From a virus (lineage: Duplodnaviria; Caudoviricetes), in the IMG/VR virus record IMGVR_UViG_3300015607_004069, positions 32,001 to 96,000 of that record: a DNA stretch of 64,000 nt, one strand, 5' to 3'. Below, one piece after another: positions 48,036 to 48,533 of this stretch; the first letter of the stretch is position 1; each line of letters begins with the position of its first letter. The notes beneath the pieces are model-generated. The model searched no databases. It was not told where the DNA came from and saw nothing but the letters and a program-made list of their open reading frames with translations. The translations under genes were made by a program, and so were the position numbers.

Positions 48036-48533
48036 TCATGATGATAGTTGGTTGATACTATCGAACCATGGTGGTCTTTCTCTATTAGTCCACATATCCA
48101 TGCGTTTTCCGTTCTTCATGTATATCTTCTCATTCATATAATACCGCCTGTATGATTCGACAGCATCCTTTGTCTTATAAACATCTGGCATACTCAAGGC
48201 GAATTCAGTTAGCTGCTTTGATGGCAGATTTGGTGGGCGTTTCAATATTTTGATTATCTCAGCTGTCTTATGCACCTTGCGTCTTCTAAATGTGAATTCT
48301 GCACACAAGTTAACGGCTAGTTCATGTAGCCACTTATAATTCTCTATGGTTTTACGACACCATATTGCACATGGATGATTTTTGTGTGTCAGCTTATAGG
48401 GAGCTGTTCCACCAGTCATATGATGTGCTGAGCATAATAGTTGTGCACTTTCCACTATCATTTTGGCACAGTGCTTATCATTGTGATATTGCGATGCCTT
48501 CTGATGGTCAACGTCTAGCACGAATATGTTCAT
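48036..48533 (-). CDS. Pyrimidine dimer DNA glycosylase / endonuclease V-like protein
   Basis: MNIFVLD..HNDKHCAKMIVESAQLL..THKNHPCAIW..Y.WL..LC.EF..R..KVH family signature; GAGG RBS. Confidence 0.75.
   Translation of the reverse strand: MNIFVLDVDHQKASQYHNDKHCAKMIVESAQLLCSAHHMTGGTAPYKLTHKNHPCAIWCRKTIENYKWLHELAVNLCAEFTFRRRKVHKTAEIIKILKRPPNLPSKQLTEFALSMPDVYKTKDAVESYRRYYMNEKIYMKNGKRMDMWTNRERPPWFDSINQLSS

What the first reader, a model, noticed from the sequence alone, without database searches (positions are those of the whole stretch)
48036..48533. DNA glycosylase/AP-lyase gene between nuclease-less Tas and its array
Seen: the order on one strand is tasA-like, hairpin, endonuclease-V-like glycosylase, ~30 nt, array, so the array is probably co-transcribed with the glycosylase. 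Known: this family excises damaged bases and nicks DNA, and it is also common as a stand-alone phage UV-repair gene. Inference: it could be a trans-acting effector recruited by TasA (RNA-guided base excision or nicking), or simply an inserted passenger.
Basis: inference. Interest (0 to 1): 0.7.

Follow-up and report, generated by a model that had tools for sequence, protein, structure and literature searches.

The report
Repair-type gene inserted in TIGR-TasA locus
A small gene of the phage T4 endonuclease V (UV-damage DNA glycosylase) type really does sit between a nuclease-less RNA-guided TasA gene and its guide-RNA array in this jumbo phage, but the pairing occurs in only this one phage lineage, so it is most likely an ordinary repair gene that landed there and not a new RNA-guided effector.

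Summary
On the minus strand the order is tasA (48599-49591), a 10-bp hairpin (48565-48588), a 165-aa ORF (48036-48533), 32 nt, then a TIGR array of 44 full 35-nt units plus a leading partial one (46438-48003) and a terminator hairpin.

The ORF is an intact member of a very large family. Most relatives match Pfam PF03013. The model's only strong fold match is T4 endonuclease V (Z 9.0). The catalytic Glu is kept.

Functional linkage to TasA is not supported:
- None of 167 non-identical Tas loci carries such a gene.
- None of 82 loci holding its closest homologues carries a Tas gene or an array.
- In the nearest distinct TasA relative (76% identity) the array starts at the tasA stop codon.
- Similarity to the nearest homologues ends at the ORF borders.
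- The gene's GC content is 8 points below that of tasA.

The best reading is therefore a passenger, moron-like insertion that is probably transcribed with the array.

Side result: the same tasA-to-array slot holds HNH or endonuclease VII genes in five other loci and a Mom-like gene in one. Earlier scan notes on other DNA saw the nuclease insertions too. That keeps a small chance alive that this slot holds trans-acting effector genes.

The parts
48599..49591 (-). tasA: nuclease-less Nop-domain TIGR-associated protein. It is 330 aa from the GTG start; the likely true start is the ATG at 49543, giving 314 aa as in P0121.
   Evidence: NF052498 2.8e-51, 174.5 bits against a cut-off of 100. PDB sequence hits to TasR 9mty and TasH 21kl. 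Only a Transposase_20 hit in Pfam. 2670 homologues.
48565..48588 (-). Perfect 10-bp GC-rich hairpin with a 4-nt loop, 11 nt after the tasA stop, followed by a U-poor tail. It may be an attenuator or weak terminator, or an RNA-stability element at the 5' border of the insertion.
   Evidence: Fold -28.4 kcal/mol, z -3.4. Unique in the window. Absent from IMG/VR. Not called a terminator by the scan. Absent in L003, where the array abuts tasA.
48036..48533 (-). 165-aa T4-endonuclease-V-fold (PF03013-related, phrog_624) putative DNA glycosylase/AP lyase. This is the gene of the finding.
   Evidence: phrog_624 1.9e-53. About 1000 homologues. All 39 invariant family residues are kept. Model pLDDT 90.9. 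1enj_A Z 9.0, rmsd 3.3 A, 117 residues aligned. T4 E23 aligns with E28.
47985..48013 (-). Sigma-70-like motif TTGACA-17-GATCAT in the 32-nt gap and first array unit. It is a possible separate array promoter; this is consensus match only.
   Evidence: 10 of 12 matches. The region's total count is not above the shuffles.
46438..48003 (-). Dual-repeat TIGR array. A 5'-truncated edge repeat is followed by 44 units of 35 nt (edge GAACGACAGCCA, 8-nt spacer A, loop GA[AT]CACA, 8-nt spacer B) and a 3'-truncated edge repeat.
   Evidence: Same strand and repeat style as the arrays directly after tas in relatives. Collinear with the L004 array but with unit indels.
46412..46438 (-). Terminator-like hairpin closing the array.
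   Evidence: Matches the layout described for TIGR arrays in PMC12045711. L003 has an equivalent GC hairpin after its array.

Best explanation
The 165-aa gene is an intact, stand-alone phage DNA-repair-type gene of the T4 endonuclease V / pyrimidine-dimer glycosylase superfamily (the phrog_624 branch common in large phages). It was inserted as a single-gene cassette into the junction between tasA and its TIGR array in one jumbo-phage lineage.

Inferred mechanism of the protein: it scans duplex DNA, flips a base at a UV photodimer or similar lesion, and cuts the glycosidic bond through an N-terminal amine with help from Glu28. It then nicks the abasic site by beta-elimination. It would do this independently of TasA.

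Inferred consequence for the locus: the array now lies behind the inserted gene. It is transcribed either by read-through from tasA past the hairpin or together with the inserted gene. TasA plus its tigRNAs would keep working as a cleavage-free RNA-guided DNA binder or repressor.

Shown here: the anatomy, the family and fold, the single-lineage distribution and the insertion-like borders. Inferred: enzymatic activity, substrate and transcript structure.
For: Family and fold
- phrog_624 at 1.9e-53 and about 1000 homologues.
- 36 of 40 relatives match PF03013, from residue 1 = profile position 1, as T4 DenV does.
- Model pLDDT 90.9. T4 endonuclease V is the only match above Z 5: Z 9.0 against 4.8 for the next.
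- T4 D14, H16 and E23 align with invariant D19, H21 and E28.

Ordinary phage gene
- Homologues occur in 604 phage records. 317 of them are Synechococcus, Prochlorococcus or other cyanophages. Others are T4-like Acinetobacter, Vibrio and jumbo Pseudomonas phages.
- The window lies in a 181.7-kb virus record that holds one copy.

No linkage to Tas
- 0 of 80 IMG/VR, 0 of 38 metagenome and 0 of 52 genome Tas loci have a homologue. L003 has none either. 149 of the 167 loci have at least 700 nt downstream of tas.
- 0 of 80 IMG/VR homologue loci, and neither of the two closest homologue contigs (73% and 71% identity), have a Tas gene or a 33-38-nt periodic array.
- Only the near-identical contigs L004 and L005 (TasA 99%, this gene 98%) share the arrangement.

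Insertion
- In L003 (TasA 76% identical) the array starts at the tasA stop.
- In 88 of 98 loci with a detected downstream array, the array starts within 250 nt of the tas stop.
- DNA similarity to L001 and L002 ends at the ORF borders.
- GC is 39.8% (GC3 39.8%) against 47.5% (52.9%) for tasA and 46.8% for the array.

Literature
- Faure et al. clustered genes within 5 kb of tas genes and found only a parB-like partner. They state that TasA has no clear associations with other proteins (PMC12045711).
- A 2026 preprint that surveyed over 20,000 tas loci shows TasA acting as a repressor on its own and never mentions a glycosylase.
Against: - The gene is co-oriented and tightly packed between the two parts of the system. 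It is kept in the three contigs of the lineage that could be examined.
- The array kept diversifying after the insertion, so the gene does not disable the system and could in principle be used by it.
- The same slot holds other DNA-acting enzyme genes in at least six other TasA loci.
- Unchecked scan notes report a glycosylase-like partner of dead TasR in CPR bacteria.
- No member of this branch of the family has, to my knowledge, been assayed. T4's R22 and R26 are not conserved, so the repair activity itself is an inference.
- Absence in other loci cannot exclude a lineage-specific recruitment.
Confidence: 0.8

Rival explanations
1. Trans-acting effector. TasA-tigRNA binds and bends the target DNA and recruits the glycosylase/AP lyase, giving RNA-guided base excision or nicking. 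The tasA-to-array slot would then be a general place for exchangeable effectors: HNH, endonuclease VII, Mom-like, glycosylase.
For: - Same strand and tight spacing.
- TasA has no nuclease of its own.
- Five other loci carry an HNH or endonuclease VII gene, and one a Mom-like gene, at exactly this position.
- The endonuclease VII gene sits at the same offset in two loci whose TasA proteins are only 61% identical.
- Scan notes e1-1141620 and e1-1898647 report a glycosylase-like partner of dead TasR (unchecked).
Against: - The gene is absent from 167 other Tas loci, and Tas is absent from 82 homologue loci.
- Only one lineage has the arrangement.
- The slot nucleases look like ordinary free-standing homing endonucleases. 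Their best PDB relatives are I-HmuI, T4 endonuclease VII and Hpy99I, not TasH.
- TasA's acidic C-terminal tail is also present in L003, which lacks the gene.
- TasA represses transcription without any partner.
Confidence: 0.06
2. A passenger gene, but not a lesion-specific glycosylase. This branch of the fold may be a non-catalytic or differently catalytic DNA-binding protein, as the PHROG label 'DNA binding protein' suggests. It would still be unrelated to TasA.
For: - The window protein has no direct Pfam hit.
- A profile of the family does not find T4 endonuclease V by sequence.
- T4 R22 and R26 align with V27 and Q31.
- Residue 2 is Asn, so the N-terminal Met is probably retained, unlike T4's mature Thr2 (plus general knowledge of methionine aminopeptidase specificity).
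Against: - The catalytic Glu is invariant, as is the strictly invariant unextended N-terminus MNIF, in 39 of 40 sequences.
- The fold match covers 117 of 137 residues of T4 endonuclease V.
- Enrichment in cyanophages fits UV repair.
Confidence: 0.1
3. Regulatory cassette. The insertion (hairpin plus gene plus a promoter-like junction) is retained because it uncouples array transcription from tasA. It would set the tigRNA-to-TasA ratio or the timing. The encoded enzyme would be incidental.
For: - A strong hairpin lies right after tasA.
- A perfect TTGACA with a 17-nt spacer lies at the array's 5' edge.
- The array is still evolving in this lineage.
Against: - Promoter-like sites are not more frequent than in shuffles, and the host's promoter type is unknown.
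- The hairpin lacks a U-tract.
- 88 of 98 other loci manage with the array directly behind tas.
Confidence: 0.04

Closest known systems
T4 endonuclease V (DenV), pyrimidine-dimer DNA glycosylase/AP lyase (Pfam PF03013; PDB 2END, 1ENJ)
   Same: - Same all-helical fold: Z 9.0, 117 residues aligned.
- The catalytic Glu and the D-x-H motif align.
- The alignment to the Pfam profile starts at residue 1 in both.
- Both are small stand-alone phage genes.
   Different: - Only about 8-15% identity. The window protein does not reach Pfam's threshold itself.
- It is 165 aa against 138 aa, with an extra 5 residues before helix 1 and a longer C-terminal part.
- T4 R22 and R26 are not kept.
- The N-terminus is Met-Asn, not a mature Thr2.
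- Activity is untested.
phrog_624 family ('DNA binding protein' / 'putative endonuclease V') of cyanomyoviruses, Acinetobacter and Vibrio T4-like phages and jumbo Pseudomonas phages
   Same: Full-length match at 1.9e-53. Identity to annotated phage genes is 27-47%. The size and invariant motifs are the same.
   Different: In those phages, and in 82 metagenomic loci, the gene is not next to a Tas gene or an array.
Dual-repeat TIGR-TasA systems (for example Flavonifractor plautii FpTasA; Faure et al. 2025, PMC12045711)
   Same: A Nop-domain protein without a nuclease. A co-oriented downstream array with edge and loop repeats and two spacers. Truncated terminal edge repeats and a terminator.
   Different: The unit is 35 nt with 8+8-nt spacers, not 36 nt. 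A protein-coding gene lies between tasA and the array. The only described TasA partner is a parB-like gene.
Free-standing HNH / endonuclease VII genes inserted at the 3' end of tasA (loci L051, L082, L085, L209, L226; scan notes e1-3488447, e1-3488450)
   Same: The same insertion slot, the same strand, and a small DNA-acting enzyme.
   Different: Those are nuclease families typical of homing endonucleases. They recur in several loci. The glycosylase-type gene has no known mobility function and occurs in one lineage only.

Membership tests
PF03013 / T4 endonuclease V-type pyrimidine-dimer glycosylase | Significant match to the family profile | tested here: inconclusive
   The window protein has no hit at E <= 0.1. 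36 of 40 aligned relatives match, the best at 1.2e-08. P0005, 66% identical to the window protein, scores 27.4 bits against a cut-off of 23. Membership therefore rests on transitive homology.
PF03013 / T4 endonuclease V-type pyrimidine-dimer glycosylase | T4 endonuclease V fold | tested here: met
   The model has pLDDT 90.9. VIA-align against 48,161 chains puts 1enj_A at Z 9.0, rmsd 3.3 A, 117 of 137 residues. It is the only match above Z 5. Foldseek alone was not significant.
PF03013 / T4 endonuclease V-type pyrimidine-dimer glycosylase | Catalytic glutamate (T4 Glu23) | tested here: met
   MAFFT places T4 E23 on E28, D14 on D19 and H16 on H21. E28 and H21 are invariant and D19 is nearly invariant in 40 sequences. 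The alignment is at low identity, so the register is probable, not certain.
PF03013 / T4 endonuclease V-type pyrimidine-dimer glycosylase | Free N-terminal alpha-amine as nucleophile (T4 Thr2) | tested here: inconclusive
   The N-terminus MNIF is invariant and unextended. Residue 1 aligns with profile position 1, as in T4. The residue differs from T4 and the chemistry cannot be tested here.
PF03013 / T4 endonuclease V-type pyrimidine-dimer glycosylase | T4 basic DNA-contact residues Arg22 and Arg26 | tested here: not met
   They align with V27 and Q31. Other invariant basic residues (K24, H21) lie nearby.
PF03013 / T4 endonuclease V-type pyrimidine-dimer glycosylase | Glycosylase/AP-lyase activity on cyclobutane dimers | not testable with these tools
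   This needs an enzyme assay.
TIGR-Tas accessory or effector gene | Recurrent co-occurrence with tas in independent lineages | tested here: not met
   0 of 167 non-identical Tas loci have the gene. 0 of 82 homologue loci have a Tas gene or an array. Only near-identical contigs share it. It is not among the tas neighbours reported in PMC12045711.
TIGR-Tas accessory or effector gene | Operon-like placement with tas and the array | tested here: met
   Same strand. The ATG lies 65 nt after the tasA stop, and the array starts 32 nt after the gene's stop.
TIGR-Tas accessory or effector gene | Physical or functional interaction with the Tas ribonucleoprotein | not testable with these tools
   This needs pull-down and guide-dependent activity assays.
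Dual-repeat TIGR-TasA system (context of the gene) | Nop-domain Tas protein without a nuclease domain, plus a co-oriented dual-repeat, dual-spacer array | tested here: met
   NF052498 at 174.5 bits against a cut-off of 100. No HNH or RuvC hit. 44 units with edge and loop repeats and two 8-nt spacers.

The most novel reading that the evidence does not exclude
The position between tasA and its array may be a slot for exchangeable trans-acting DNA enzymes that nuclease-less TasA brings to its RNA-specified targets: HNH or endonuclease VII nucleases in some phages, a Mom-like modification enzyme in another, and here an endonuclease-V-type glycosylase/AP lyase. That would give natural RNA-guided base excision or nicking.
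Probability: 0.06. Interest if true: 0.8.

Novelty: new member of a known kind. Interest (0 to 1): 0.28.

Why it matters
If the gene were a TasA-recruited effector, it would be the first natural RNA-guided base-excision system and would explain what nuclease-less TasA systems do. The evidence instead points to an ordinary event: a common phage repair-type gene dropped into a TIGR-TasA operon in one lineage.

What remains useful:
- A clean example showing that the tasA-array junction tolerates gene insertions without stopping array evolution.
- A structural link between a large, poorly annotated phage family (phrog_624, usually labelled 'DNA binding protein') and the T4 endonuclease V fold, with the catalytic Glu kept.
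- The observation that this junction repeatedly carries small DNA-enzyme genes. This deserves a census across all known tas loci.

Tried and rejected
- Complex prediction of TasA (alignment A1) with the 165-aa protein (A2) scored 0.00. The verdict was 'no answer', so it counts neither for nor against binding.
- Sequence searches of the protein and of its family profile against PDB chains found only chance-level hits, and not T4 endonuclease V.
- hhalign of the family against the single T4 DenV sequence gave only a weak C-terminal match around the RP-x-W motif.
- Foldseek against the PDB gave no significant match, although four T4 endonuclease V entries were among the weak top rows. The exhaustive VIA search was needed.
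- NCBIfam has no model for the protein.
- The exact hairpin sequence is absent from IMG/VR and unique in the window, so it is not a phage-wide repeated element.
- My first periodicity detector was too strict and produced false 'gaps' between tas and the array. Inspection showed that most were arrays starting at the tas stop, and it was replaced.
- I considered that TIGR-Tas was inserted around a resident repair gene. I rejected this as less parsimonious, because it needs two insertions and 88 of 98 loci have tas and the array adjacent.
- L003's flanks are not syntenic with the window, so the ancestral site cannot be reconstructed from it.
- I could not identify the family of the glycosylase-like protein reported by scan notes in CPR TasR operons.

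Full report
OBSERVATION

The window is part of a 181.7-kb virus record, rated 51% complete. On the minus strand I find the following, in order.
- A 330-aa ORF at 48599-49591. A near-identical database protein starts at the ATG at 49543, which gives 314 aa.
- A perfect 10-bp hairpin at 48565-48588.
- A 165-aa ORF at 48036-48533, with a GAGG ribosome-binding site.
- 32 nt of spacer.
- An array of 44 edge repeats with a strict 35-nt period: 12-nt edge, 8-nt spacer, 7-nt loop repeat, 8-nt spacer. It opens with a truncated edge repeat near 48003 and closes with a truncated edge repeat.
- A terminator-like hairpin at 46412-46438.

The 330-aa protein scores 174.5 bits on NCBIfam NF052498, 'TIGR-Tas system RNA-guided endonuclease' (cut-off 100). 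It matches the TasR and TasH chains in the PDB. It has no nuclease domain in Pfam. It is therefore a TasA with a dual-repeat TIGR array, laid out as described by Faure et al. (PMC12045711).

WHAT THE 165-AA GENE IS

It is a real, intact gene.
- It has about 1000 homologues at E <= 1e-3.
- It matches phrog_624 over its full length at 1.9e-53.
- It keeps every one of the 39 invariant positions of a 40-sequence alignment.

The window protein itself gets no Pfam hit. However, 36 of the 40 aligned relatives match PF03013, 'pyrimidine dimer DNA glycosylase'. These include a 66%-identical relative that scores above Pfam's curated cut-off. Those matches run from residue 1 at profile position 1, exactly as T4 DenV does.

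An AlphaFold2 model built on the alignment has pLDDT 90.9. Foldseek gave only weak rows. The exhaustive VIA-align search of 48,161 PDB representatives put T4 endonuclease V (1enj_A) alone at the top: Z 9.0, rmsd 3.3 A, 117 of 137 residues aligned. The next chain is at Z 4.8.

Adding the T4 DenV sequence (fetched) to the alignment places its catalytic Glu23 on invariant Glu28, Asp14 on Asp19 and His16 on His21. T4 Arg22 and Arg26 fall on Val27 and Gln31. The strictly invariant, unextended N-terminus fits an enzyme that uses its N-terminal amine. From established knowledge, this is the nucleophile in T4 endonuclease V.

I therefore accept 'endonuclease-V-type glycosylase/AP lyase' as the most likely activity. 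It is an inference: I know of no assayed member of this branch, and some T4 DNA-contact residues are not kept.

Homologues lie in 604 deposited phage genomes. More than half are cyanophages. The rest are mainly large Vibrio, Acinetobacter and Pseudomonas phages. They are annotated as 'DNA binding protein', 'hypothetical protein' or 'putative endonuclease V'. That distribution fits a UV-repair accessory gene of large phages.

IS IT LINKED TO TasA?

Starting from TasA, I fetched 80 IMG/VR loci, 38 metagenome loci, 52 genome loci and the contig of the closest distinct homologue, L003 (TasA 76% identical). A profile HMM built from 120 family members found no homologue of the 165-aa protein in any of them. 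167 of these loci have a confirmed Tas match, and 149 have at least 700 nt downstream of it.

Starting from the 165-aa protein, the two closest homologues with available DNA (73% and 71% identity) lie in phage-like contigs without a Tas gene and without a periodic array. So do 80 IMG/VR loci holding homologues at 44-54% identity.

The only other contigs with the tasA-gene-array order are L004 and L005 (TasA 99%, this protein 98%). They are the same phage species.

INSERTION SIGNATURES

- In L003 the array begins at the tasA stop codon, on the same strand and with the same repeat style. It ends in a GC hairpin.
- Among 98 loci with a detectable downstream array, 60 start within 60 nt and 88 within 250 nt of the tas stop.
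- Nucleotide similarity between the window and the two closest homologue contigs starts at the ATG and stops at the stop codon.
- The gene's GC content is 39.8% (GC3 39.8%), against 47.5% (52.9%) for tasA and 46.8% for the array.
- The hairpin upstream of the gene is absent from L003, unique in the window and absent from IMG/VR.

The simplest history is one insertion of a roughly 0.6-kb single-gene cassette into the tasA-array junction, after the split from the L003 lineage.

The array has continued to change since then. L004's array is collinear with the window's but has an extra unit, replaced units and spacer point changes. The insertion has therefore not silenced the system.

LITERATURE

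Faure et al. clustered genes within 5 kb of tas genes and found only a parB-like gene operonized with tasA. They state that TasA lacks clear associations with other proteins. A 2026 preprint that surveyed over 20,000 tas loci shows that TasA alone, with its tigRNA, binds DNA and represses transcription. It does not mention glycosylases. TasA therefore needs no enzyme partner for a function.

TRANSCRIPTION

Co-transcription of the array with the inserted gene is plausible. Both are on the same strand, the gap is 32 nt, and there is no terminator between them. It is unproven.
- The hairpin after tasA is very stable but lacks a U-tract, and the terminator scan did not call it.
- A TTGACA-17-GATCAT motif lies at the array's 5' edge. 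Promoter-like motifs are no more frequent here than in shuffled sequence, and the host is unknown.
- No RNA data could be obtained.

A SIDE OBSERVATION THAT KEEPS THE NOVEL READING ALIVE

Ten loci have more than 250 nt between tas and the array. In five of them the gap holds a recognisable DNA-enzyme gene on the tas strand:
- endonuclease VII in L082 and L209;
- an HNH_3 nuclease in L085;
- an HNH nuclease in L051;
- a Mom-like DNA-modification gene in L229.

L226 has a homologue of the L085 nuclease directly after tas. L043 has a 76-aa Cys-rich ORF inside its array. Homologues of these nucleases are almost absent elsewhere in the flanks; there is one weak hit.

The two endonuclease VII genes are 44% identical and start at the same offset relative to TasA proteins that are 61% identical. 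Their nearest solved relatives are I-HmuI, T4 endonuclease VII and Hpy99I, not TasH. This fits free-standing homing endonucleases that target the conserved tasA 3' end.

Earlier notes of this scan described the same kind of HNH or endonuclease VII insertion in other phages. They also reported a glycosylase-like partner of dead TasR in CPR bacteria. I could not check the latter or identify its family.

The pattern is suggestive. For the nucleases it is explained by homing. For the Mom-like gene and the glycosylase-type gene it rests on single lineages.

VERDICT

The gene is most likely a passenger repair-type gene inserted into a TIGR-TasA operon of one jumbo-phage lineage (confidence about 0.8).

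RNA-guided base excision by a TasA-recruited glycosylase is not excluded, but nothing here supports it (about 0.06). The complex prediction gave no verdict and is not used as evidence.

Novelty: a new member of known kinds, in an unusual but explicable position. Interest is low to moderate, mainly because of the recurrent occupation of the tasA-array slot by DNA-enzyme genes.

Noticed in passing
L082:6773-7363, L209:2047-2673, L085:6396-6977, L226:4084-4956, L051:6805-7407 (all + strand, directly after or overlapping the 3' end of tasA): Five other TasA loci carry an endonuclease VII or HNH nuclease gene between tasA and its array. The two endonuclease VII genes are 44% identical and start at the same offset, although their TasA proteins are only 61% identical. 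Their best PDB relatives are homing or restriction-type HNH enzymes, not TasH. Either these are homing endonucleases targeting the tasA 3' end, or they are split TasH-like effectors.
   Followed up: partly
L229:6961-7512 (+), array from about 7693: A Mom-like DNA-modification gene (PF25680, 3.4e-24) occupies the same tasA-to-array slot in a Chloroflexota MAG contig.
   Followed up: no
L043:7125-7355 (+): A 76-aa Cys-rich ORF (CxxC...CxxC) with no family match lies in the middle of a TIGR array. The array continues on both sides of it.
   Followed up: no
window 46438-48003 versus L004:6675-7785: Two phages with 99%-identical TasA have collinear arrays that differ by one inserted unit, three replaced units and single-base spacer changes. 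This is direct evidence of recent unit turnover in a TIGR array, whose mode of expansion is unknown.
   Followed up: partly
window 46438-48003: This array uses a 35-nt unit with 8+8-nt spacers. So does the array of the closest relative, L003. Nearly all of the other surveyed TasA loci show a 36-nt period.
   Followed up: partly
window 43907-46027 (+): A 706-aa ORF converging on the array end has HTH repeats, HNH-endonuclease PHROG hits (phrog_8446, 2e-17) and a methyltransferase-like C-terminal part. At 35.7% GC it is the most AT-rich gene of the neighbourhood.
   Followed up: no
L003 versus G000 (genome positions about 166 kb and 175 kb): The genes flanking the TIGR-TasA module of L003 have their homologues 85-95 kb away from the module in the window's genome. 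The module therefore sits at different genomic places in related phages, and may itself be mobile.
   Followed up: no
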